IMG/VR virus record: IMGVR_UViG_3300045988_000550
Coordinates: 1-5,754 of that record
From: a virus
DNA length: 5,754 bases
Reading direction: 5' to 3' (one strand)
Shown here: positions 1 through 5,754 of the stretch, one piece after another
Position numbering within the stretch: position 1 is the first letter of the stretch
Layout: each line of letters opens with the position of its first letter
Program-made: the position numbers and the translations under genes
The notes under the pieces: generated by a model
The model's database searches: none
What the model saw: only the letters and a program-made list of their open reading frames with translations
What the model was told of the DNA's origin: nothing

Positions 1-119
1 CCTTTTTTTGTTCCATGTGGAACATTACAGCCGGATGCCGCCCCGGCTGACCTTCGGACGTACGTTGATGTTCTTCGTCCGCTTTGCGGTCTGCGTAAAA
101 CGCTGCTGGTCGCCACGTC
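1..119. repeat. Terminal direct repeat, left copy. It is identical to 5636-5754 and is the signature of a circular genome assembled with an end overlap. Unique genome length is 5635 nt.
   Basis: Base-by-base comparison: cctttttttgttccatgtggaacattacagccggatgcc...ctggtcgccacgtc occurs at 1-119 and again at 5636-5754 with a constant offset of 5635. Genes and ribosome-binding sites are continuous across the junction. Confidence 0.95.
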
Positions 120-170: not shown

Positions 171-198
171 ATTGTATTAAAAAAAGAGGGCTTGTCAA
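171..198 (-). promoter_or_regulatory. Sigma70-type promoter: TTGACA (rc 193-198), 16-nt spacer, TACAAT (rc 171-176). It would drive the J-like, lysis, scaffold and capsid gene block.
   Basis: The minus strand reads cTTGACAagccctctttttttaaTACAATaaagaca. The -35 hexamer is a perfect consensus and the -10 matches 5 of 6 positions. It is positioned just upstream of the first SD/ATG of the long gene block. Confidence 0.5.
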
Positions 199-205
199 GC
201 CCTCT
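178..205 (-). terminator. Rho-independent terminator ending the rep/60-aa ORF transcription unit.
   Basis: The inverted repeat agagggcttg (185-194) / caagccctct (196-205) is perfect. It gives an effective 8-bp GC-rich stem with a 5-nt loop. On the minus strand it is followed by a run of 6-7 U (plus-strand A run at 179-185). The TGA stop of the 60-aa ORF sits in the loop. Confidence 0.75.
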
Positions 206-377
206 CAGTGAAGTATATTTCTATTTCTTCGACTTTGTACAGCGAATAGATTCCTTCGTGTTCGTTTGCGTAGTCCTTTGCTCTTCGCTTTGCGTTTTTC
301 GGTTCGTCATTGATTTTCAGTACCGTGGTCATTTTGTCGTCGTCTTTCCATGCTCTCAGTTCGTATTTGTGCTTCAT
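195..377 (-). CDS. Hypothetical 60-aa protein of unknown function: MKHKYELRAWKDDDKMTTVLKINDEPKNAKRRAKDYANEHEGIYSLYKVEEIEIYFTERA
   Basis: This is ORF-track ORF 195-386. I prefer the internal ATG (rc 375-377) because GGAAGGTG lies 6 nt upstream of it, whereas the track start is a GTG that lies inside that SD. The ORF ends in the terminator hairpin. I recognise no family. Confidence 0.5.
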   Translation of the reverse strand: MKHKYELRAWKDDDKMTTVLKINDEPKNAKRRAKDYANEHEGIYSLYKVEEIEIYFTERA

Positions 378-413: not shown

Positions 414-485
414 TATTTTACCGAAAAAGTTTCCCTAGGATAGGAGCGCCATTAAACTCCCGCCCGCGGGCGCTCATTTTGATAA

Positions 486-502
486 GACCGGCAAGGCCGG
501 TC
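486..502 (-). other. GC-rich hairpin downstream of rep, gaccggc-aag-gccggtc. It may be a weak terminator or a structural element.
   Basis: Perfect 7-bp stem (486-492 / 496-502) with a 3-nt loop, 58 nt after the VP4 stop. The downstream minus-strand tract is uuaucaaaau, which is a poor U-run. Confidence 0.35.
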
Positions 503-559
503 AGACTGTTGGCGCGCTCCGTCAGACTTTTCCGCCGTCGCTCACCCTGCTTTATTCAG

Positions 560-1555
560 CTATAAGGTTTCTTTCGGCTCTCGCCATTTTTGTTTTTGCT
601 TGTCCTTTTCTTTCTGGATTTCGAGATATGTTGAATACGGTACGCTTGTGTTTTGCTCAAGGTTTACGAGACTTAGCACCGCGTTTCTCCTTCTCTTGGC
701 TCTTACCTCTCTCAGCTCGTTAGAATGGGCCTTGAAATAGCTCTCAGCGTCTTGGCTGGTATCCTTATCGAGTAGCTTATCAAAGTATCTTGGTGGCTTT
801 TTCTGCCGTCCTCCGGCGCACGTTATATTATCAGTCTCGAGTATTTCGCTCATGTGCTCTTTAAGATATTTCTCCCCGATGCCTTTGGACATGATTCTAA
901 ACTCTGGTTCTCTGCCTTGCATCCAGTATTTTGCATTCTGCTCTGCGCCGATGGCCTTTTTATTGACATACTGCGCTACATACGCATAAGAACCCGGTGC
1001 CGCTGGTGAGAAGTCTACAAAGCCTTTTCCCCAGAGGTTTGTTAGCCACTCGCTCTTGAAGTACGAGTTGCCTTTCTGGTTTTTGTACCATTGTCCATCC
1101 TCTGGCTTTAGTCCAAAGAAAATACCGTGATAGTGCGGTCGCTTTGTCCTGTCTCCGTACTCTCCTGCTATGAAGTATTTTATTGGCTTCTTGTATGCCT
1201 TTCTTAGACGTTTTAGAAATAGCTGCACGTCTCTTTTACTTACTGTCTGAGATTGGATACTCTGGTAGCCTTTCAGGATTTCTCCGTATGGTACATGGTC
1301 CTCGTCATAGGTCATCGTAACGAAGATTACGTCTTCCCAGTCTTTCGCCTCAAGCTCGATTCTCGTTGCCCATTGGTCCGCTGTTTGCTTTCTGCAATAC
1401 TCACACTGCCCGCAAGGCAATAACGCGAGGTTTCCTCTTTTGACGCCGTCCATGATGGTTATTTCTAGGTTCTGTTTCTTGAGGTTTCTTAAACTTCCCC
1501 ACATTCGCGGCTTTTTCTCGTTCATTACAAAAACATTTGGATTTGTACATGGCAT
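560..1555 (-). CDS. VP4: Replication initiation protein, an HUH rolling-circle endonuclease (Microviridae VP4 / phiX174 A-like), 331 aa.
   Basis: Motifs seen in the translation: CGQCEYCR (residues 48-55), FVTMTYD (motif I, 78-84), PHYHGIFFG (HUH motif II, H141/H143) and YAYVAQYVNKK (Y192-x3-Y196, the paired catalytic tyrosines). The N-terminal MPCTNP resembles other gokushovirus VP4 proteins. An in-frame TAG 27 nt upstream prevents any extension of the ORF. Confidence 0.93.
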   Translation of the reverse strand: MPCTNPNVFVMNEKKPRMWGSLRNLKKQNLEITIMDGVKRGNLALLPCGQCEYCRKQTADQWATRIELEAKDWEDVIFVTMTYDEDHVPYGEILKGYQSIQSQTVSKRDVQLFLKRLRKAYKKPIKYFIAGEYGDRTKRPHYHGIFFGLKPEDGQWYKNQKGNSYFKSEWLTNLWGKGFVDFSPAAPGSYAYVAQYVNKKAIGAEQNAKYWMQGREPEFRIMSKGIGEKYLKEHMSEILETDNITCAGGRQKKPPRYFDKLLDKDTSQDAESYFKAHSNELREVRAKRRRNAVLSLVNLEQNTSVPYSTYLEIQKEKDKQKQKWREPKETL

Positions 1556-1606
1556 ATTGTCTGGCCCAAGCTTACTTGTCTATCTTGGGCCAGTTGACAC
1601 CTCCTT
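1556..1606 (-). promoter_or_regulatory. Split ribosome-binding site of VP4: AAGGAGGTG, then 4 nt, then a 33-nt perfect hairpin, then 5 nt, then ATG.
   Basis: SD AAGGAGGTG is rc 1598-1606. The hairpin arms are ctggcccaag (1561-1570) and cttgggccag (1584-1593), a 10-bp perfect stem with a 13-nt loop. The ATG is at rc 1553-1555. Confidence 0.6.
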
Positions 1607-1638: not shown

Positions 1639-1675
1639 ATATATATATAACTTGTTGTAGTAGTAGTAGTAGTAG
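1639..1675. repeat. Two adjacent microsatellites: (AT)5 at 1639-1649 and (GTA)6 at 1657-1675.
   Basis: Read directly from the sequence: catatatatataacttgttgtagtagtagtagtagtagcg. Confidence 0.9.
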
Positions 1676-1676
1676 C

Positions 1677-1856
1677 GTTGAAACTGTTGAAAACTCTAAT
1701 TTATAGCGTTGATACGCGTAATTATCGCCCCTTTTCCTGTTGAAAGTTTTGTTCAAAACTTGTTGAAATGTTGAAAACTCTTTTTTGTCCTCAACTATGG
1801 TTGTTTTTCCTGTTGAAAACTCTGTGGAAACTGTTGAAAACTAAAGTTTTCCACAA
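1677..1856. repeat. Iteron-like array of GTTGAAAAC (GTTTTCAAC on the coding strand). There are 4 perfect and at least 6 degenerate copies, one of them inverted.
   Basis: Perfect gttgaaaac starts at 1686, 1770, 1812 and 1833; the first three extend to gttgaaaactct. Variants are at 1677 (gttgaaac), 1739 (gttgaaag), 1751 (gttcaaaac), 1762 (gttgaaat), 1824 (gtggaaac) and, inverted, 1846-1854 (gttttccac). A 14-bp repeat, ttttcctgttgaaa, occurs at 1732 and 1805. Confidence 0.85.
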
Positions 1857-1861
1857 TTTGT

Positions 1862-2716
1862 TTAATTTCCTGTGTACCCTCTCATCAGGTTTGTGTTCGG
1901 CATCAGCGGCACGTTTTTTAAGTGGTCGCTCCACTTTTCTGCCCCTTGGTCGATTCTTTCTCCTGCTTTGTTTCCAAGGTCTTTCGCTACATTGCCTATA
2001 TCGGTCAGCTTGTCGCCCAGCGCGTTGGCCATATAGGTATAATCTGCCACCTGTTTTGCGCTTGACTGTGCAAGACTGCTTGCGGCCTCGTTCCAGCTTT
2101 TTGCCGAGTGGTATTGTTTTGCGCTTGTGGCCTTTTTTGCCAGTTCCAAATACCTGTTTGCCAGTTCTGCCGTGTTGTTGCCGTACTCGTACATCGCTGA
2201 GACAGATGCTGCTTGTGCGCTCTGTTGGTTGTATCGCTGTGTTCCGATGCTTGCGCTTGCTCCTGACGGTGTTGCCGTTGCTCCGTTGTTCGCTGCCAAA
2301 ATCGGGTTGATTCCTGCTGCTATCATGTCCTTTACGGTGTCCTGATACGCTGTGCCTCTCATTTCCCTTTCGAAGGCTCGTTCCGCCGCTGCTTCTGCGG
2401 AGTTGTATTTTTTTGCTGAGGCTTGGCTTCCTGCGTTCATCGCGTTGCTTAGCATCGAACTGAGGAAGCTTGCTAAGTTGGCGTTGGTTACGCTCCCTTG
2501 GTTGCTGTACGTTCCGAACCCTGTTGGCGTTCCGATTTGCGTTGAGCCGATTTGCTGTGGAGCTGTTGGACTTCCCGTGGTTGTTTCGTTTCCGCTGGTG
2601 GTTTCTTCTCCACTCTGTTTTGTGCTTGTTGCGCTGGAGCTGTTAGAACTTGTTATGATGTTGCTTAGCATGCTAAGTCCTTGCATCACAAAAGGCATCC
2701 ATGATAAAAGACTCAT
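1862..2716 (-). CDS. VP2: Minor capsid / DNA pilot protein (Microviridae VP2, functionally phiX174 H-like), 284 aa.
   Basis: It lies immediately after VP1. The central motif TAYQDTVKDMIAAGINPILAA matches the conserved VP2 core (tAYQ..v.D...AGlNP.La). The flanks are low-complexity and rich in Ser, Thr, Gly, Ala, Gln and Asn, which is typical of VP2. Confidence 0.88.
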   Translation of the reverse strand: MSLLSWMPFVMQGLSMLSNIITSSNSSSATSTKQSGEETTSGNETTTGSPTAPQQIGSTQIGTPTGFGTYSNQGSVTNANLASFLSSMLSNAMNAGSQASAKKYNSAEAAAERAFEREMRGTAYQDTVKDMIAAGINPILAANNGATATPSGASASIGTQRYNQQSAQAASVSAMYEYGNNTAELANRYLELAKKATSAKQYHSAKSWNEAASSLAQSSAKQVADYTYMANALGDKLTDIGNVAKDLGNKAGERIDQGAEKWSDHLKNVPLMPNTNLMRGYTGN

Positions 2717-2754: not shown

Positions 2755-4401
2755 TTAAATTCTTTCGATGCCGGGAATGCTATAGATGGGCATTTCCCTG
2801 AACCATGATTCGTCATACCAGAAGTCACAAAGGAACTGGTGTGCTTTTGCGCTTGTTACCGCAATCGTGCGGTCAATGTTTTCGCGGCCTTCCTGAATCC
2901 ATTCTGCCGATAGTTTCGGGAGTTGGTCGTAGTCGTCTGCATAGTGCCATGCATCCAGAGGCGTTTTGTAGTTAGACCGCATTTCTCCGGTCACATAGGA
3001 CGGTTTGTATCTATAATCGGCCCAGCATTCCTGATAGCCGAAAATTTCGCCGTCTTTGTCTGTGCCTTGTGCGTAGATTTCCCGGTTATAAACCGGCTGT
3101 TCGCCGAGTGCCGCTAGTCTCGGGTCGTAGTATGTGAATCTGCCGCCCCGCGTCCACTTGGTAGCGAGTCCCTGCTGGTAGCTGTGGTCTACTCGTACCA
3201 CTGCCAGACCGATGATATAACCGTACTCGGTTGCCGCGTAGTCTACCATCTGTTTGCTACAGGTCGTCAGGCTGTATGCCGCTGTGTTGCCCAGTGCCTG
3301 GCCGGTCTGTGGGTCTGTCTGGCTTGTCTGGATGACCTGATTGACATTGATAGCGATTCTCTGCCCGCCGATGTACTCCGGAATCTGGAGACGGCTGTCT
3401 GGACTCGTCACTCCCCACGTTCCGGAAAGGAACTCGCGGTAGCGTGTGCCATTTCTGGCATCGGCTTCGAAGATGTGTTGCAGTGCAATGGCTTGCCGCA
3501 GGTCGTTTATGGTTGGTGCTGCTGCCGTTGTGAGGTCTGCTCTCAATGCCAGCTCTCCTTCCTTGACATTACTCGGCCAAGCTGTGAGCCCGTAGTCTCT
3601 TTTTTCTCCTTCACTATTTTCTGCGTAATTAATGCCGATATTTGAAAAGCTGGTGCTATTCTTGTATACGTTGTCGGTGACTTCGAGGTTTTCTGCGTCG
3701 ATGTAGTATCCCATTATTTTTGCGCTTTTTCCTATCGGAATCGTTACCGCCTCAGTATTTTTCAACGGCGAAGGAAGGCATGACGTGAAGTAGTCATGGA
3801 ACTTACCAGCTCTTGCCGGTTTCATCGCGTACAGCGTTGCTTCGTTGTTGTTGGCCGTCTTGTCGATGGCGTTTGCGCTCGCCGTCTCTTTGTTGGCGTC
3901 TGCGTTCGTGCCGCCGTCATCTGACTTTTTGTAGCCCAGCATCAACGGTGCTTCGAGGTTTTCGTCTCGAAACCATTCGTTGTAAATCATCGCATAGGCT
4001 CTTGCCGGGAGCGCGTTTACTTTAAGCGCGTTGGTTACTTCGGTAGGCAGTCCGAAATAGTCTCCGATACTGCCGTTAGCAAGGCCGCTTTTGCCGCCGA
4101 TGGTGCATTGCGGAGTGCTGTACTCCGTTTTTTCCGCCCAGTAGTCGGTATTGTTCTCGCCGAACATATTTTCAAAGTGCTCCCACAGGAGACGTGACGG
4201 CACAAAGAAAAAGTATGTGTCCATGTAACAGTTATCCATGATAGGATAGATAGGCGTACTCATGCGAATAAGGCCGTTCAGCTTTACTCTCGCGGTATCA
4301 CCCGGTAGCACTTCGTCCATATAGATAGGCACTAACTCGCCCTCGTTGATGGTCGTTAGCAGCTGGTGTCCTCGGTCAAATTTAGACCGTGGTCTTTGCA
4401 T
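2755..4401 (-). CDS. VP1: Major capsid protein (Microviridae VP1 / F-protein family), 548 aa.
   Basis: The N-terminus SKFDRGHQLLTTINEGELVPIYMDEVLPGDT followed by DTYFFFVPSRLLWEHF is the hallmark of the Phage_F capsid fold. The size is typical of gokushovirus-like VP1 proteins. Confidence 0.95.
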   Translation of the reverse strand: MQRPRSKFDRGHQLLTTINEGELVPIYMDEVLPGDTARVKLNGLIRMSTPIYPIMDNCYMDTYFFFVPSRLLWEHFENMFGENNTDYWAEKTEYSTPQCTIGGKSGLANGSIGDYFGLPTEVTNALKVNALPARAYAMIYNEWFRDENLEAPLMLGYKKSDDGGTNADANKETASANAIDKTANNNEATLYAMKPARAGKFHDYFTSCLPSPLKNTEAVTIPIGKSAKIMGYYIDAENLEVTDNVYKNSTSFSNIGINYAENSEGEKRDYGLTAWPSNVKEGELALRADLTTAAAPTINDLRQAIALQHIFEADARNGTRYREFLSGTWGVTSPDSRLQIPEYIGGQRIAINVNQVIQTSQTDPQTGQALGNTAAYSLTTCSKQMVDYAATEYGYIIGLAVVRVDHSYQQGLATKWTRGGRFTYYDPRLAALGEQPVYNREIYAQGTDKDGEIFGYQECWADYRYKPSYVTGEMRSNYKTPLDAWHYADDYDQLPKLSAEWIQEGRENIDRTIAVTSAKAHQFLCDFWYDESWFREMPIYSIPGIERI

Positions 4402-4426
4402 TCGCGGTACTTGCGCGAAATGCGAT

Positions 4427-4855
4427 TCACTGTTCCGGTTTATCGTCGCTCACCTCTTCCTTTTTTTCTTCTTCCTTCGGCGGTTCGGTCTTCTGCGTCT
4501 GCTTCATCTGCGTCTGCTTCAGCTGCTTCAGCGTTTCCGCCGCCGTCTGTGCTCTCTCGTGCATCGTTACTACGTCCTTCGGCAGGTTTTCCAGCGGCGT
4601 TCCCTCGGTGTATACCATGCTCTTTGCCTTGACGCTCACGTCGCCAGCTTCCAGCCGTGCGATTGCGCTTGCGAGGTCGTAGCCCTCACCGGCCCGCTGG
4701 ATTTCCTCGTATACGTTCTCGGGCGGCTGTTCGATGTATTCGGTTGTGCCGTTCGGTCGCTTCACCGCCTTCCACGTCGGTGCCGTCTCTGAGCCTGCCT
4801 TGTTCGGCACTCTCTTGGTAGGCATCCCGAAGAACCTCACGTTAGGATTTTCCAT
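4427..4855 (-). CDS. VP3: Probable internal scaffolding protein (VP3-like), 142 aa, with a low-complexity Lys/Glu/Gln C-terminal tail.
   Basis: ATG at rc 4853-4855 with GGAG 7 nt upstream. The segment ENVYEEIQRAGEGYDLASAIARLEAGD...NLPKDV resembles the N-[IV]-Y-E-x-I-Q ... E-x-G-D ... P-x-x-[LV] pattern that I recall from gokushovirus VP3 proteins. This assignment is from memory, not from a search. Confidence 0.6.
   Translation of the reverse strand: MENPNVRFFGMPTKRVPNKAGSETAPTWKAVKRPNGTTEYIEQPPENVYEEIQRAGEGYDLASAIARLEAGDVSVKAKSMVYTEGTPLENLPKDVVTMHERAQTAAETLKQLKQTQMKQTQKTEPPKEEEKKEEVSDDKPEQ
4492..4530. repeat. In-frame 15-bp tandem duplication (tctgcgtctgcttca x2) plus a partial 9-bp unit, inside the VP3-like gene.
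   Basis: 4492-4506 equals 4507-4521, followed by gctgcttca at 4522-4530. Together they encode LKQLKQTQMKQTQKT. Confidence 0.85.
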
Positions 4856-5099
4856 TGCCGTACTCCTTTTTCAGGTCAACCAGTTTGTACAGCTGTTTCG
4901 GCTCTGCTCCGTACATTTCGCCGGTTTCGCTGTTGAACTCGCCCATCTCTACGAGGCTGATGTCTTCGATTTCCTGCAACTTGGACTCGTCTGCCTTCCA
5001 TTTTGCTGTGCGGATTGCCTGTGCTCTGTTCTGCTGGAGGAACGGATTGCTGTATCCGTTGGTTACGCTGTCGTGAAAACTGTAAAACGTGTATTTCAT
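4842..5099 (-). CDS. Conserved microvirus nonstructural protein of unknown function (possibly VP5-like), 85 aa, starting MKYTFYSFHDS.
   Basis: I chose the ATG at rc 5097-5099 over the track's GTG at 5108 because AGGTGG lies 5 nt upstream of the ATG, and the GTG is part of that SD. The pattern FYSFHDSVTNGYSNPFLQQNRAQAIRTA...LVEMGEFNSETGEM resembles the F-x-[VI]-x-D...PF...A-x-R-x-F...L-x-x-x-G-x-F-[DN]-x-x-TG family seen in gokushovirus genomes (from memory). The ATG overlaps the peptidase TGA (ATGA), and the 3' end overlaps the VP3-like start by 14 nt. Confidence 0.7.
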   Translation of the reverse strand: MKYTFYSFHDSVTNGYSNPFLQQNRAQAIRTAKWKADESKLQEIEDISLVEMGEFNSETGEMYGAEPKQLYKLVDLKKEYGNGKS

Positions 5100-5488
5100 T
5101 TTTTCCACCTTGCCTTTTTCTCTCGTGTGTCGATGTGCGTGAAAGTCCAGTAGCTTCCGATGCCGTATCTGTCCCAGTATTTATGTTTTAAGTACTGTTG
5201 TACCTTATTTGCTGGAACTCCTTTTACTCGAATATCTGCTGCCGTGCCTTTTGTGTGCTGTGAGTTTTTTACGCCGCCGATTTTCGCGTTGTATTCCGGA
5301 GTCCTGTAGCCACTGGTGATTATTACAGGTGCGTTAAAGTGCATTCTTACATCTTCCAGCACTTCTATCAGCTCTGAGTCGATGATTATTTTGTCGCATC
5401 TGCCATCTTTTTGTGCAAATTCTTTGATTTTGAAATGTGCGCTTACATGGTGGGTGCCCTGATGAAATAGGCTGTATTCATTCAGCAC
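5096..5488 (-). CDS. Zinc D-alanyl-D-alanine carboxypeptidase-like peptidoglycan hydrolase (peptidase M15 / LAS superfamily, Peptidase_M15_3-like), 130 aa. It is a candidate endolysin.
   Basis: The signature SQHTKGTAAD (S-x-H-x-x-G-x-A-x-D, with H78 and D85) plus the distal FTHID (H118) form the H/D/H zinc triad. SGYRTPEYN and KEF...D upstream of these are also typical of the family. The GTG start at rc 5486-5488 lies 5 nt after GAGGAG. No N-terminal hydrophobic signal or TM segment is visible. Confidence 0.88.
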   Translation of the reverse strand: MLNEYSLFHQGTHHVSAHFKIKEFAQKDGRCDKIIIDSELIEVLEDVRMHFNAPVIITSGYRTPEYNAKIGGVKNSQHTKGTAADIRVKGVPANKVQQYLKHKYWDRYGIGSYWTFTHIDTREKKARWKK

Positions 5489-5490
5489 TT

Positions 5491-5625
5491 TTACTCCTCT
5501 CTTTCTTCTTTGTCTGCGTCCTCTGCGTCCTCTGCGTCCTCTGCGTCCTTCACGACTGCATGGTAAATCTTATCTACCATCGCCAGAATCTTCATCAGGA
5601 TGTTTATAGTCTCTTTAAAGTCCAT
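5491..5625 (-). CDS. Small 44-aa protein with an amphipathic helix and an acidic repeat tail: MDFKETINILMKILAMVDKIYHAVVKDAEDAEDAEDADKEEREE
   Basis: ATG at rc 5623-5625 with AGGAAG 7 nt upstream. This is shorter than the 86-aa track ORF, whose upstream part begins at a GTG with no SD and overlaps the better-supported 38-aa basic ORF in another frame. The TAA lies 2 nt before the peptidase GTG. Confidence 0.55.
   Translation of the reverse strand: MDFKETINILMKILAMVDKIYHAVVKDAEDAEDAEDADKEEREE
5514..5549. repeat. Perfect 9-bp tandem repeat ctgcgtcct x4, in frame, encoding (DAE)3DA in the 44-aa protein.
   Basis: The units are at 5514-5522, 5523-5531, 5532-5540 and 5541-5549, and all four are identical. 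Confidence 0.92.
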
Positions 5626-5635
5626 TGATTCACTT

Positions 5636-5754
5636 CCTTTTTTTGTTCCATGTGGAACATTACAGCCGGATGCCGCCCCGGCTGACCTTCGGACGTACGT
5701 TGATGTTCTTCGTCCGCTTTGCGGTCTGCGTAAAACGCTGCTGGTCGCCACGTC
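5636..5754. repeat. Terminal direct repeat, right copy. It includes a truncated duplicate (5660-5754) of the 38-aa basic peptide gene found at 25-141.
   Basis: Exact identity to 1-119. The SD of the 44-aa ORF (AGGAAG, rc of 5633-5638) straddles the junction, which supports circular continuity. Confidence 0.95.

What the first reader, a model, noticed from the sequence alone, without database searches (positions are those of the whole stretch)
1639..1861. Helically phased GTTGAAAAC iteron-like array with adjacent AT and GTA microsatellites in the VP2-VP4 intergenic region
Seen in the sequence: (a) The 306-bp non-coding gap upstream of rep holds four perfect copies of the 9-mer GTTGAAAAC, starting at 1686, 1770, 1812 and 1833. 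The spacings are 84, 42 and 21 bp, all multiples of 21 bp, which is about two helical turns. (b) At least six one-mismatch copies are packed 8-12 bp apart around them. The one at 1846-1854 is inverted and creates the palindrome tgtggaaa...tttccaca (1823-1830 / 1849-1856). (c) Longer units also repeat: gttgaaaactct x3 and ttttcctgttgaaa x2. (d) By eye I find no other perfect copy elsewhere in the genome, only scattered degenerate ones. (e) Next to the array are (AT)5 and (GTA)6 tracts, which melt easily. (f) A related short palindrome, gttcca-tg-tggaac, sits at 11-24 between the J-like gene and the 44-aa gene. Established knowledge: the phiX174 origin is a 30-nt site inside gene A with no iterons. 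Iteron arrays are typical of theta/RCR plasmid origins and CRESS-DNA virus origins, or of operator clusters. Inference: the array could be a binding platform for VP4/Rep, which would make it an origin or an autoregulatory site for the rep gene immediately downstream. It could instead bind a host or phage DNA-binding protein, or act as a complementary-strand origin in the ssDNA form.
Basis: partly seen in the sequence, partly recalled or inferred. Interest (0 to 1): 0.7.

Follow-up and report, generated by a model that had tools for sequence, protein, structure and literature searches.

The report
Host chromosome-origin mimic in gut microvirus
The repeat array and the two "microsatellites" beside it form one conserved unit that copies the part of a bacterial chromosome origin where the host initiator DnaA binds and opens the DNA, which suggests this small single-stranded DNA phage of the gut recruits its host's own replication starter.

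Summary
Four perfect GTTGAAAAC copies lie at the stated positions, and all eight TGTKGAAA cores of the genome lie in 1685-1855 (0.32 expected by chance).

The array is probably not a Rep (VP4) iteron platform. The (AT)5 tract, the (TAG)6 run and about ten co-oriented 9-mers (TGTTGAAAA, TGTGGAAAC, one inverted TTTTCCACA) form one module. It has the layout of the bacterial oriC basal unwinding system: AT-rich element, DnaA-trios, short spacer, tandem DnaA boxes, then further phased box clusters.

- At least 76 distinct gokushovirus genomes carry the module. It is their most DNA-conserved segment, although VP4 identity falls to 32%.
- It lies upstream or downstream of VP4 and in either orientation relative to the genes.
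- At homologous positions TGTTGAAAAC alternates with TGTGGAAAAC and with TGTGGATAAC, the perfect DnaA box.
- The same layout, including TGTTGAAA boxes, occurs in dnaA-dnaN intergenic regions of gut Clostridia (a Ruminococcus MAG, an Eubacteriales MAG). One phage module aligns colinearly over 198 nt with the region upstream of dnaN in a Clostridia MAG.

Most likely, host DnaA binds the double-stranded replicative form and opens it at the AT tract. No binding or replication data exist. I found no paper linking Microviridae to DnaA boxes.

The parts
1639..1650 (.). AT-rich tract (ATATATATATAA), proposed as the duplex unwinding element
   Evidence: Together with the trios, 1639-1668 is the least stable 15-nt and 30-nt duplex segment of the whole genome by nearest-neighbour energy. 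An AT-rich tract occupies this position in all aligned modules and next to the TAG run in bacterial origins, where the AT fraction is 0.85.
1649..1657 (+). AACTTGTTG junction between the AT tract and the trios. It is phage-specific; role unknown.
   Evidence: It is invariant in the 30-sequence alignment, though part of that set was retrieved with a pattern containing it. It is also present in 53 of 55 modules retrieved with an independent anchor. It is absent from the consensus of 119 bacterial origin modules. It recurs at 1757-1765 inside a box cluster, so it looks like the junction between two repeat units.
1658..1675 (+). (TAG)6, proposed as DnaA-trios (3'-GAT-5' read on this strand)
   Evidence: TRF reports period 3, 6.3 copies, 100% match. 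Related modules carry 5-6 TAG. The published trio consensus is 3'-GAT-5' with at least three units (PMC8287927). The same (TAG)n lies next to DnaA boxes in bacterial dnaA-dnaN intergenic regions.
1676..1693 (+). Trio-proximal tandem box pair: CGTTGAAAC (1676-1684, degenerate) and TGTTGAAAA (1685-1693)
   Evidence: The reverse complement TTTTCAACA has 2 mismatches to TTATCCACA and lies 9 nt from the trios, within the published search rules. Other genomes have TGTGGAAAA-GTTGAAAAC at the homologous place after a 4-nt G-rich spacer.
1706..1717 (.). Mini-palindrome GCGT-TGAT-ACGC in the spacer between box clusters 1 and 2. It overlaps the box-like CGTTGATAC at 1707-1715.
   Evidence: Read from the sequence. 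The two half-sites change together in relatives: AACGT..ACGTT, TATC..GATA, ACG..CGT. Function not tested.
1738..1777 (+). Box cluster 2: TGTTGAAAG (1738), TGTTCAAAA (1750), TGTTGAAAT (1761), TGTTGAAAA (1769)
   Evidence: This is the most conserved stretch of the module (TTTGTTGAAAACTTGTTGAAtTGTTGAAA). In some genomes the second box is TGTGGATAAC, a perfect DnaA box.
1811..1840 (+). Box cluster 3: TGTTGAAAA (1811), TGTGGAAAC (1823), TGTTGAAAA (1832)
   Evidence: Conserved as TGTTGAAAACcTGTTGAAAgTGTTGAAA in the alignment.
1847..1855 (+). Inverted canonical DnaA box TTTTCCACA (fits TTWTNCACA). With 1828-1842 it forms an imperfect hairpin or palindrome.
   Evidence: It is the only strict TTWTNCACA match in the genome. 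The inverted repeat is 15 nt and 87% complementary. The 76 modules contain only 22 reverse-oriented boxes in all, so it is not universal.
1561..1593 (.). Conserved hairpin between the module and the VP4 start codon. It is a neighbour, not part of the DnaA-type module.
   Evidence: Perfect 10-bp stem. The stem shows compensatory changes in relatives.
560..1555 (-). VP4, the replication initiation protein, flanking the AT-rich end of the module
   Evidence: Pfam PF23343 E=2e-19 and PHROG 942 E=1e-105. The AT-rich end of the module faces VP4 in both genome arrangements.
1862..2716 (-). VP2, the DNA pilot protein, flanking the box end of the module
   Evidence: PHROG 18604 E=3e-126.

Best explanation
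1639-1855 is a phage-borne copy of the DnaA-dependent unwinding module of a bacterial chromosome origin (the 'basal unwinding system' plus flanking DnaA-box clusters).

Proposed mechanism, acting on the double-stranded replicative form:
1. Host DnaA binds about ten co-oriented, helically phased 9-mers. These are TGTTGAAAA/TGTGGAAAC, whose reverse complements TTTTCAACA/GTTTCCACA are variants of the DnaA box TTATCCACA.
2. From the box pair next to the (TAG)6 run, DnaA extends as a filament onto the TAG strand (DnaA-trios).
3. This opens the adjacent (AT)5 tract.
4. The open region lets the host helicase and primase load. That would either start or boost replication of the replicative form, or expose single-stranded DNA for VP4.

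Shown here: the sequence architecture, its conservation, its independence from VP4 sequence and from gene orientation, and its match to bacterial origins.

Inferred: DnaA binding, unwinding and any effect on replication.

The likely hosts are gut Clostridia of the Ruminococcus/Eubacteriales type, whose own origins are built mainly of TGTTGAAA boxes.
For: Architecture in the window.
- The order is AT tract, (TAG)6, tandem boxes, then two more box clusters.
- It passes the published sequence rules for this system: a box with at most 2 mismatches within 16 bp of at least 3 trios (PMC8287927).

Conservation.
- 76 distinct gokushovirus modules share this layout.
- Of 55 modules retrieved through box cluster 2 alone, 54 also carry the TAG run, five of them with one substituted unit.
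- The module is the most widely matched part of the genome: 51 of 53 distant genomes match 1601-1800 by blastn, against at most 28 for any coding stretch. VP4 identity in those genomes is 32-42%.

Box identity.
- At homologous positions TGTTGAAAAC, TGTGGAAAAC and TGTGGATAAC (perfect TTATCCACA) alternate.
- Strict TTWTNCACA occurs at 4.7 per kb inside modules and 0.059 per kb outside.
- TGTKGAWAA with at most 1 mismatch occurs at 30 per kb against 1.3 per kb, with 663 forward and 22 reverse copies.

Bacterial counterpart.
My own estimate of the chance number is about 26.
- 68 of the 120 loci hold a dnaA-like gene within 8 kb; in 66 it lies on the strand expected for the published layout.
- The spacer is 4 nt in 104 of 119 bacterial modules and in 29 of 29 phage modules. 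The second box starts 8-9 nt after the first in both.

The T-type box at real origins.
- L184 (Ruminococcus MAG) has dnaA 3613-4983 and dnaN 5500-6675 by Pfam. An 800-nt window around the pattern, which lies in the dnaA-dnaN gap, holds 17 TGTTGAAA and 4 TGTGGAWA.
- L219 (Eubacteriales MAG) reads dnaA-origin-dnaN-recF, with 11 TGTTGAAA in the 800 nt around the origin pattern and 6 in the remaining 7.2 kb.
- Phage module L020 aligns colinearly over 198 nt (66% identity, E=1e-15) with the region upstream of dnaN in L242 (Clostridia MAG). The alignment covers the trios, the tandem boxes and both further clusters at the same spacing.

Physical properties.
- The AT tract plus trios is the least stable duplex segment of the genome.
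- Box spacing is periodic at about 10.6 bp. A distal DnaA box in B. subtilis shows helical phasing and works in either orientation (PMC6669920).
Against: - 86% of the boxes carry T where the canonical reverse-complement box has G, which is C6 to A in TTATCCACA. Binding of DnaA to this variant has not been shown for any host.
- In this window the trio-proximal box is degenerate (CGTTGAAAC), and the 4-nt G-rich spacer seen in relatives is missing.
- To my knowledge, microviruses studied so far replicate by rolling circle with their own Rep and no DnaA requirement is known. This was not checked here.
- SpV4, phiMH2K and Chp2 have no trio run and no comparable box cluster.
- One related contig (L362) keeps box clusters 2-3 but, in the 140 nt shown upstream of cluster 2, lacks the trios and the first box pair.
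- The host is unknown and no experimental data exist.
- The related genomes are not independent samples, and most were retrieved with patterns taken from the module itself.
Confidence: 0.7

Rival explanations
1. Iterons for the phage Rep. VP4 binds the GTTGAAAAC repeats to define the rolling-circle origin or to autoregulate its own gene.
For: The array abuts the VP4 gene in every genome arrangement. Direct repeats beside an AT-rich tract are typical of Rep-bound origins (general knowledge). The junction AACTTGTTG shares the 6-mer AACTTG with the phiX174 nick site CAACTTG^ATA.
Against: The motif is unchanged while VP4 identity falls to 32%. The same arrays occur in bacterial dnaA-dnaN regions and in large viral contigs; I did not search those loci for VP4. 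The module sits downstream of VP4 in most genomes and flips relative to the gene strand, which a strand-specific nick site should not do. AACTTGTTG also occurs inside a box cluster, so the match to phiX174 is probably incidental. No promoter-like site was found.
Confidence: 0.05
2. Single-strand origin. The module works on the incoming viral single strand to start complementary-strand synthesis. Two routes are conceivable: a hairpin presenting a double-stranded DnaA box, as at the DnaA-dependent 'A site' primosome of plasmid R6K (my own knowledge, not checked here), or direct binding of DnaA to the TAG strand or of DnaD to the CTA strand.
For: Both strands of 1556-1861 fold better than shuffles (z = -5.9 and -4.8). 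The hairpin 1828-1859 places TTTTCCACA in a stem. DnaD of B. subtilis binds the strand opposite the trios through TnnT motifs, and CTACTACTA contains such motifs (PMC10201434).
Against: Most of the folding energy comes from hairpins outside the box array, at 1561-1593 and 1615-1642. The 76 modules hold only 22 reverse-oriented boxes. The stem keeps a T-C mismatch in every sequence I read, with no compensatory change. Direct repeats cannot form double-stranded boxes on a single strand. Inversion of the module puts opposite strands into the presumed virion strand in the two genome groups.
Confidence: 0.1
3. DnaA sink or regulator. The module binds DnaA but does not fire as an origin. Many copies of the replicative form would titrate DnaA away from the host origin, or DnaA binding would tune VP4 transcription. 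Comparable cases are the E. coli datA site and the DnaA-box cluster proposed for the T5 injection-stop region.
For: A conserved cluster of DnaA boxes with a proposed non-replicative role exists in T5-like phages, including the same C6-to-A variant TTATCAACA (bioRxiv 10.1101/866236). About ten boxes per genome copy would be an effective sink.
Against: A sink needs no trios and no AT-rich element in the exact origin arrangement, yet both are kept in 54 of 55 independently retrieved modules. Transcriptional control of VP4 does not fit a module that lies downstream of VP4 in most genomes.
Confidence: 0.1
4. Another host or phage DNA-binding protein recognises TGTTGAAA, for example a sporulation or nucleoid protein, and the resemblance to DnaA boxes is partial coincidence.
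For: The dominant variant departs from the canonical box at a normally conserved position. It is one base away from the Spo0A box TGTCGAA (my own knowledge, not checked here).
Against: None of the 76 modules contains TGTCGAA. Canonical DnaA boxes replace the variant at homologous positions. The variant dominates bacterial origins between dnaA and dnaN and sits exactly where the trio-proximal DnaA box belongs.
Confidence: 0.05

Closest known systems
Basal unwinding system of bacterial chromosome origins (B. subtilis incC: DnaA-box#6/#7, DnaA-trios, AT-rich region; predicted in 85% of 2070 origins; PMC6669920, PMC8287927)
   Same: The order and relative orientation of the elements match: AT-rich tract, (TAG)n trios, 4-nt G-rich spacer in relatives, and tandem boxes offset by 8-9 nt, followed by helically phased distal boxes.
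   Different: It lies in a 5.6-kb single-stranded-DNA phage, not next to dnaA/dnaN. An invariant AACTTGTTG lies between the trios and the AT tract. Most boxes are the TTTTCAACA variant. In this window the spacer and the first box are degenerate. Function is untested.
dnaA-dnaN (or dnaN-upstream) origins of gut Clostridia found here: Ruminococcus sp. MAG JAFYFU010000007 (L184), Eubacteriales MAG CAKSSR010000006 (L219), Clostridia MAG CAMHLN010000058 (L242)
   Same: They use the same box variants (TGTTGAAA[A/G] mixed with TGTGGAAAA), the same trios and spacer, and three box clusters at the same spacing. One phage module aligns colinearly with L242 over 198 nt.
   Different: The bacterial origins are longer, with about 21 boxes in L184. 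They lack AACTTGTTG. They are flanked by dnaA and/or dnaN.
DnaA-box cluster in the injection-stop region of T5-like phages (bioRxiv 10.1101/866236)
   Same: It is a conserved non-coding cluster of paired canonical and variant DnaA boxes in a phage, and it includes the C6-to-A variant TTATCAACA.
   Different: T5 is a double-stranded-DNA phage. No trios or unwinding element are described there. The proposed role is non-replicative (membrane anchoring).
Iteron-type origins of theta plasmids and Rep-bound repeats of CRESS-DNA viruses
   Same: Both have direct repeats next to an AT-rich tract, close to the rep gene.
   Different: Iterons are bound by the element's own Rep and change with it (general knowledge). 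Here the repeats are 9-mers that stay constant across very divergent VP4 and are shared with bacterial chromosomes.
phiX174 viral-strand origin (30 nt inside gene A, nick at CAACTTG^ATA)
   Same: Only the 6-mer AACTTG is shared.
   Different: The module is intergenic, repeat-rich and invertible. The rest of the 30-nt phiX174 sequence is absent.

Membership tests
Bacterial origin basal unwinding system (sequence definition of PMC8287927) | A DnaA box with at most 2 mismatches to TTATCCACA lies 0-16 bp from the trios. An optional second box has at most 4 mismatches. | tested here: met
   In the window, TGTTGAAAA (1685-1693; reverse complement TTTTCAACA, 2 mismatches) lies 9 nt from the last TAG. 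CGTTGAAAC (4 mismatches) lies between them. Relatives have TGTGGAAAA (1 mismatch) after a 4-nt spacer.
Bacterial origin basal unwinding system (sequence definition of PMC8287927) | At least three DnaA-trios (3'-NAN-5', consensus 3'-GAT-5') | tested here: met
   (TAG)6 at 1658-1675. Related modules carry 5-6 copies.
Bacterial origin basal unwinding system (sequence definition of PMC8287927) | Fixed relative orientation: boxes, then trios, then the AT-rich region | tested here: met
   The order and strand match 119 bacterial modules and the Pfam-confirmed dnaA-dnaN regions of L219 and L184. The AT tract is the least stable duplex segment of the genome.
Bacterial origin basal unwinding system (sequence definition of PMC8287927) | Short GC-rich spacer (about 4 bp) between the box and the first trio | tested here: not met
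   The window has TAG-C-GTTGAAAC with no G-rich spacer. The feature is met in relatives: 29 of 29 modules with a TGTKGAWAA box next to the trios have a 4-nt spacer, most often GGGC.
Bacterial origin basal unwinding system (sequence definition of PMC8287927) | Located at a chromosome origin, typically next to dnaA/dnaN | tested here: not met
   It lies between VP2 and VP4 of a 5,635-nt gokushovirus. It therefore works like this system but is not a chromosomal origin.
Bacterial origin basal unwinding system (sequence definition of PMC8287927) | DnaA binds the boxes, forms a filament on the trios and separates the strands | not testable with these tools
   This needs gel-shift or footprinting and a strand-separation assay with host DnaA.
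Rep-bound iteron origin | The repeats are specific to the element's own Rep and change with it | tested here: not met
   The repeats are the same across VP4 of 32-100% identity. The same repeats occur in bacterial chromosomes and in large viral contigs.
phiX174-type viral-strand origin | Conserved 30-nt sequence with CAACTTG^ATATTAATAAC on the viral strand | tested here: not met
   Only AACTTG is shared. The strand flips between genome groups.
DnaA-box hairpin single-strand initiation site (R6K A-site type; recalled from my own knowledge) | A stable hairpin in the single strand presents a double-stranded DnaA box | tested here: inconclusive
   The window has such a hairpin (1828-1842/1845-1859, 13 of 15 pairs). 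The 76 modules hold only 22 reverse-oriented boxes in all, and I saw no compensatory change in the stem.

The most novel reading that the evidence does not exclude
These gokushoviruses may have a second replication mode that does not depend on Rep. In this reading the double-stranded form fires as a small oriC-type replicon under host DnaA control. That would let it amplify, or persist like a plasmid in a carrier state, in Ruminococcus-type gut Clostridia. Rolling-circle replication by VP4 would then be used only to make progeny single strands.

A corollary: the module's box dialect (TGTTGAAA) would reveal the host of an uncultured phage clade.
Probability: 0.2. Interest if true: 0.9.

Novelty: new variant of a known kind. 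Interest (0 to 1): 0.78.

Why it matters
Microviruses are among the most abundant phages of the human and animal gut, yet most have no known host and their replication signals are unmapped.

- If the module works as proposed, a rolling-circle single-stranded-DNA phage would depend on, or exploit, the host chromosomal initiator DnaA through a near-complete copy of the host origin's opening module. I found no such case described: searches for gokushovirus + DnaA, Microviridae + DnaA box and Microviridae + oriC returned nothing relevant.
- It gives a concrete, testable host prediction: Clostridia whose own origins are built of TGTTGAAA boxes, such as the Ruminococcus and Eubacteriales MAGs found here.
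- It offers a natural 220-bp minimal origin for studying DnaA-trio function in Clostridia.
- It raises the question of plasmid-like persistence of gut microviruses.
- It shows that origin mimicry, in which a phage copies its host's box variant, could be used to assign hosts to uncultured phages. The same box variant with trios also appears in about 140-kb gut viral contigs.

Tried and rejected
- phiX174-type nick site. The phiX174 origin was checked in NC_001422. Only AACTTG is shared. The same 9-mer recurs inside a box cluster and the module flips strand. Rejected as the main reading.
- Spo0A boxes. TGTCGAA occurs 0 times in the 76 modules.
- Promoter or operator for VP4. No sigma-70-like site in 1400-2000, and the module lies downstream of VP4 in most genomes.
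- Known RNA families. No Rfam match in the window at gathering score.
- Plasmid relatives. blastn of 1636-1862 against 72,556 plasmids found nothing.
- Selected single-strand hairpins in the array. The strongest folds lie outside the boxes. The terminal hairpin is not universal and shows no covariation.
- Exact 21-bp phasing. It is specific to this genome. The general period is about 10.6 bp.
- General gokushovirus feature. SpV4, phiMH2K and Chp2 lack it.
- Assembly chimera. Unlikely, because the module is present in 46 GenBank phage records and in more than 100 independent viral contigs.
- Literature. The original DnaA-trio paper (PMC4913881) is not held. I relied on later open papers and on the bacterial loci fetched here for orientation.
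- Large viral contigs. Pfam on genes next to the box arrays gave a GyrB-like topoisomerase and an RNA ligase in L256, and integrases in L258 and L280. No initiator was identified.
- DnaA domain IV comparison. Origins rich in T-type boxes go with a GGRDHSTIVY variant. The Tyr also occurs in cyanobacterial DnaA, whose origins use TGTGGAAAA, so no specificity rule could be drawn.
Full report
**What the window is.** It is a complete circular gokushovirus genome of 5,635 nt; positions 1-119 repeat 5636-5754. All genes are on the minus strand: VP4/Rep 560-1555, VP2 1862-2716, VP1 2755-4401, VP3 4427-4855, VP5 4842-5108 and an M15 peptidase 5096-5488. The finding lies in the 306-nt VP2-VP4 gap, 1556-1861.

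**Check of the observation.**
- Four perfect GTTGAAAAC copies start at 1686, 1770, 1812 and 1833. Chance expectation is 0.06, and none of 200 shuffles reaches four.
- For the 9-mer only two one-mismatch copies lie in the gap, not six. The other degenerate copies have two mismatches.
- The shared core is clear. All eight TGTKGAAA matches of the genome lie in 1685-1855, against 0.32 expected.
- The AT tract at 1639-1649, the trinucleotide run at 1657-1675, the longer repeat units and the terminal palindrome are all present.

**The region is a conserved module, not a private repeat.**
- A blastn search with the gap alone matched 46 phage records, many of which share no other DNA similarity with this genome.
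I extracted 76 distinct modules.
- A 30-sequence alignment (A1) gives the common plan:
  - an AT-rich tract;
  - the invariant AACTTGTTG;
  - (TAG)5-6;
  - a 0-4 nt spacer, G-rich in most genomes;
  - two abutting 9-mers;
  - a spacer of about 45 nt holding a small covarying palindrome;
  - a cluster of three or four 9-mers;
  - a second spacer;
  - a cluster of three or four more 9-mers, sometimes ending in an inverted copy.
- When modules were retrieved through the middle box cluster alone, 54 of 55 also carried the TAG run, five of them with one substituted unit, and 53 carried AACTTGTTG. The 'microsatellites' are therefore integral parts.
- Against 53 distant genomes, 1601-1800 is matched by blastn in 51. 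No coding stretch is matched in more than 28.

**The module does not follow VP4.**
- In 23 genomes, including this one, it lies between VP2 and VP4 on the strand opposite the genes.
- In 53 genomes, with VP4 only 32-42% identical to this one, it lies just downstream of VP4 on the gene strand.
- In KT264801 it is downstream of VP4 but on the opposite strand.
- The repeat sequence does not change with VP4. These facts argue against Rep iterons, against a rep operator, and against any strictly strand-specific signal such as a nick site.

**What the repeats resemble.**
- On the reverse complement the 9-mers read TTTTCAACA, TTTTCCACA and GTTTCCACA. The DnaA box is TTATCCACA, relaxed to TTWTNCACA (PMC10201434; PMC7561715).
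- At homologous alignment positions TGTTGAAAAC, TGTGGAAAAC and TGTGGATAAC alternate. The last is a perfect DnaA box.
- Strict TTWTNCACA is about 80-fold enriched in the modules: 4.7 per kb against 0.059 per kb.
- The relaxed form is 23-fold enriched and almost always co-oriented: 663 forward against 22 reverse.
- (TAG)n is the DnaA-trio (3'-GAT-5'). The order AT-rich, trios, short GC-rich spacer, tandem boxes defines the basal unwinding system of bacterial origins (PMC8287927; PMC7561715).
- The window passes the published sequence rules, except that its G-rich spacer is replaced by a degenerate box.
- The AT tract plus trios is the least stable duplex segment of the genome.
- Box-to-box distances across the family are periodic at about 10.6 bp. 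In B. subtilis, distal DnaA boxes show helical phasing and work in either orientation (PMC6669920).

**Direct comparison with bacteria.**
By my own estimate about 26 would be expected by chance.
- 68 of the 120 loci hold a dnaA-like gene within the 8-kb locus, usually ending 300-400 bp from the pattern. In 66 it lies on the strand expected for dnaA, boxes, trios, AT-rich region, dnaN.
- Consensus of 119 bacterial modules: AT-rich, TAGTAGTAGTAG, Gggc, TGTGGAaAA, gtGgaAAa.
- Consensus of the phage modules: ATATAACTTGTTG, TAGTAGTAGTAGTAG, gG.a, TGTGGAAAA, GTTGAAAAg.
- The spacer is 4 nt in 104 of 119 bacterial modules and in 29 of 29 phage modules. The second box starts 8-9 nt after the first in both.

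**The T-type box is used at real origins.**
- Among the 120 bacterial hits, TGTTGAAAA at the trio-proximal position occurs only in Clostridia-class MAGs: Ruminococcus, Ruminococcaceae, Acutalibacteraceae, Christensenella and unclassified Eubacteriales/Clostridia.
- In the Ruminococcus MAG L184, dnaA (3613-4983) and dnaN (5500-6675) are confirmed by Pfam. The 800 nt around the pattern, which lies in the dnaA-dnaN gap, hold 17 TGTTGAAA and 4 TGTGGAWA, in tandem arrays about 11 bp apart.
- In the Eubacteriales MAG L219 (dnaA-origin-dnaN-recF by Pfam), 11 TGTTGAAA lie in the 800 nt around the origin pattern and 6 in the other 7.2 kb.
- Phage module L020 aligns colinearly over 198 nt with the region upstream of dnaN in the Clostridia MAG L242: 66% identity, E=1e-15, covering the trios, the tandem boxes and both later clusters at the same spacing.
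- The phage module therefore looks like a compact copy of a clostridial origin. This points to Ruminococcus-type Clostridia as hosts.

**Most likely mechanism.** Shown: the architecture, the conservation and the match to origins. Inferred: on the double-stranded replicative form, host DnaA fills the phased boxes, extends from the trio-proximal pair onto the TAG strand, and opens the AT tract. Helicase and primase can then load. Whether this starts bidirectional replication of the replicative form, primes complementary-strand synthesis, or opens DNA for VP4 cannot be decided from sequence. I put 0.7 on the module being a DnaA-driven opening and origin element.

**Rivals.**
- VP4 iterons, 0.05, for the reasons given above.
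- A single-strand origin built on a hairpin with a DnaA box, or on trio/anti-trio strand recognition, 0.1. The strongest folds lie outside the array. The 76 modules hold only 22 reverse-oriented boxes. The stem shows no compensatory change.
- A DnaA sink or regulator without origin activity, 0.1. The precedent is the DnaA-box cluster of T5-like phages, which includes the same TTATCAACA variant. That reading does not explain why the trios and the AT tract are kept.
- Another binding protein, 0.05. No Spo0A boxes are present.

**Limits.**
- No binding or replication data exist, and the host is unknown.
- 86% of the boxes carry the non-canonical T.
- The related genomes share ancestry and were mostly found with module-derived patterns.
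- The cultured gokushoviruses SpV4, phiMH2K and Chp2 lack the module.
- The reversed-orientation control scan could not be run.

**Novelty.** DnaA boxes in plasmid origins and in some phage regions are known, and the unwinding system is well described for chromosomes. I found no report of DnaA boxes, trios or oriC-like modules in Microviridae. I therefore rate this a new variant of a known kind: a chromosomal-type DnaA opening module carried by a rolling-circle single-stranded-DNA phage clade.

Noticed in passing
window 1561-1593: A perfect 10-bp hairpin (CTGGCCCAAG, 13-nt loop, CTTGGGCCAG) lies on the minus strand between a Shine-Dalgarno-like GGAGG (about 1596-1600) and the VP4 start codon (1555). 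The stem changes in a compensatory way in relatives (CCGGCACAAG/CTTGTGCCGG; TGGCGCAAG/CTTGCGCCA) while the loop is conserved. It could bring the ribosome-binding site next to the start codon, or be a Rep or terminator signal.
   Followed up: partly
window 430-556: The non-coding stretch downstream of VP4 is 90-92% identical to pig-faeces microviruses that share nothing else with this genome at megablast level. It contains GC-rich hairpins, but its overall fold is not better than shuffles (z = -1.0). It may be a second exchangeable non-coding module. Related GC-rich alternating tracts (GCGCACGCGTGCGC) flank the AT end of the DnaA-type module in many genomes.
   Followed up: partly
L184 4984-5499; L219 3993-4784; L194: Origins of Ruminococcus-type Clostridia are built mainly of TGTTGAAA boxes rather than canonical TGTGGATAA. 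The DnaA domain IV in these genomes reads GGRDHSTIVY instead of the usual RDHTTV.HA. This may be a lineage-specific DnaA-box variant.
   Followed up: partly
L256, L261, L263 (about 140-kb viral contigs); L321; L309; L280 family: Other, much larger gut viral contigs carry (TAG)4 + TGTTGAAAA-GTTGAAAAC modules or long TGTTGAAAAC arrays. In L256 the module lies near a GyrB-like topoisomerase and an RNA ligase; in L258 and L280 the arrays lie next to integrases. Origin mimicry with this box variant may be common among phages of the same hosts.
   Followed up: partly
L165 and L213 (one Prevotella MAG contig); L246, L249, L267 (viral contigs): An identical (TAG)4-GGTC-TGTGGAAAAC module occurs twice on one Prevotella MAG contig and in three viral contigs. 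This suggests a mobile element or phage of Prevotella with its own DnaA-type module.
   Followed up: no
L053 (IMGVR_UViG_3300045988_069267), module region: A 55-nt unit holding the trios and the first box pair is tandemly duplicated. L362 is the opposite case: in the 140 nt shown upstream of cluster 2 it has no trios or first box pair, but it keeps box clusters 2-3.
   Followed up: no
window 1706-1717 and homologous positions in alignment A1: A small palindrome lies between box clusters 1 and 2 (GCGT-TGAT-ACGC). Its half-sites change together across genomes (AACGT..ACGTT, TATC..GATA, ACG..CGT). The bacterial locus L242 also has an inverted repeat in the matching spacer. It may be a bending or accessory-protein site.
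   Followed up: no
window 9-24 (= 5644-5659): The palindrome TGTTCCATGTGGAACA consists of two inverted half-sites, each one mismatch from a DnaA box. It is found only in the window and three close relatives, so it is probably not part of the conserved system.
   Followed up: partly
window 5513-5549; also 4492-4532 and 3854-3908: Coding-region tandem repeats: TCTGCGTCC x4.1 (perfect), a 15-nt unit x2.3, and a 27-nt unit x2. Not examined further.
   Followed up: no
window 181-215 and 2716-2750: By eye, there are GC-rich hairpins followed by T runs on the minus strand, after the 63-aa ORF and after VP1 (agagggcttgacaagccctc-ttttttt; agccgggcaaaaacccggct-attttt). They look like intrinsic terminators.
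   Followed up: no
L274 (Chlamydia phage Chp2) 2820-2840: Two TGTGCAAAA copies, which fit the relaxed DnaA-box consensus, lie 12 nt apart in the VP3-ORF8 intergenic region. There is no trio run nearby.
   Followed up: no
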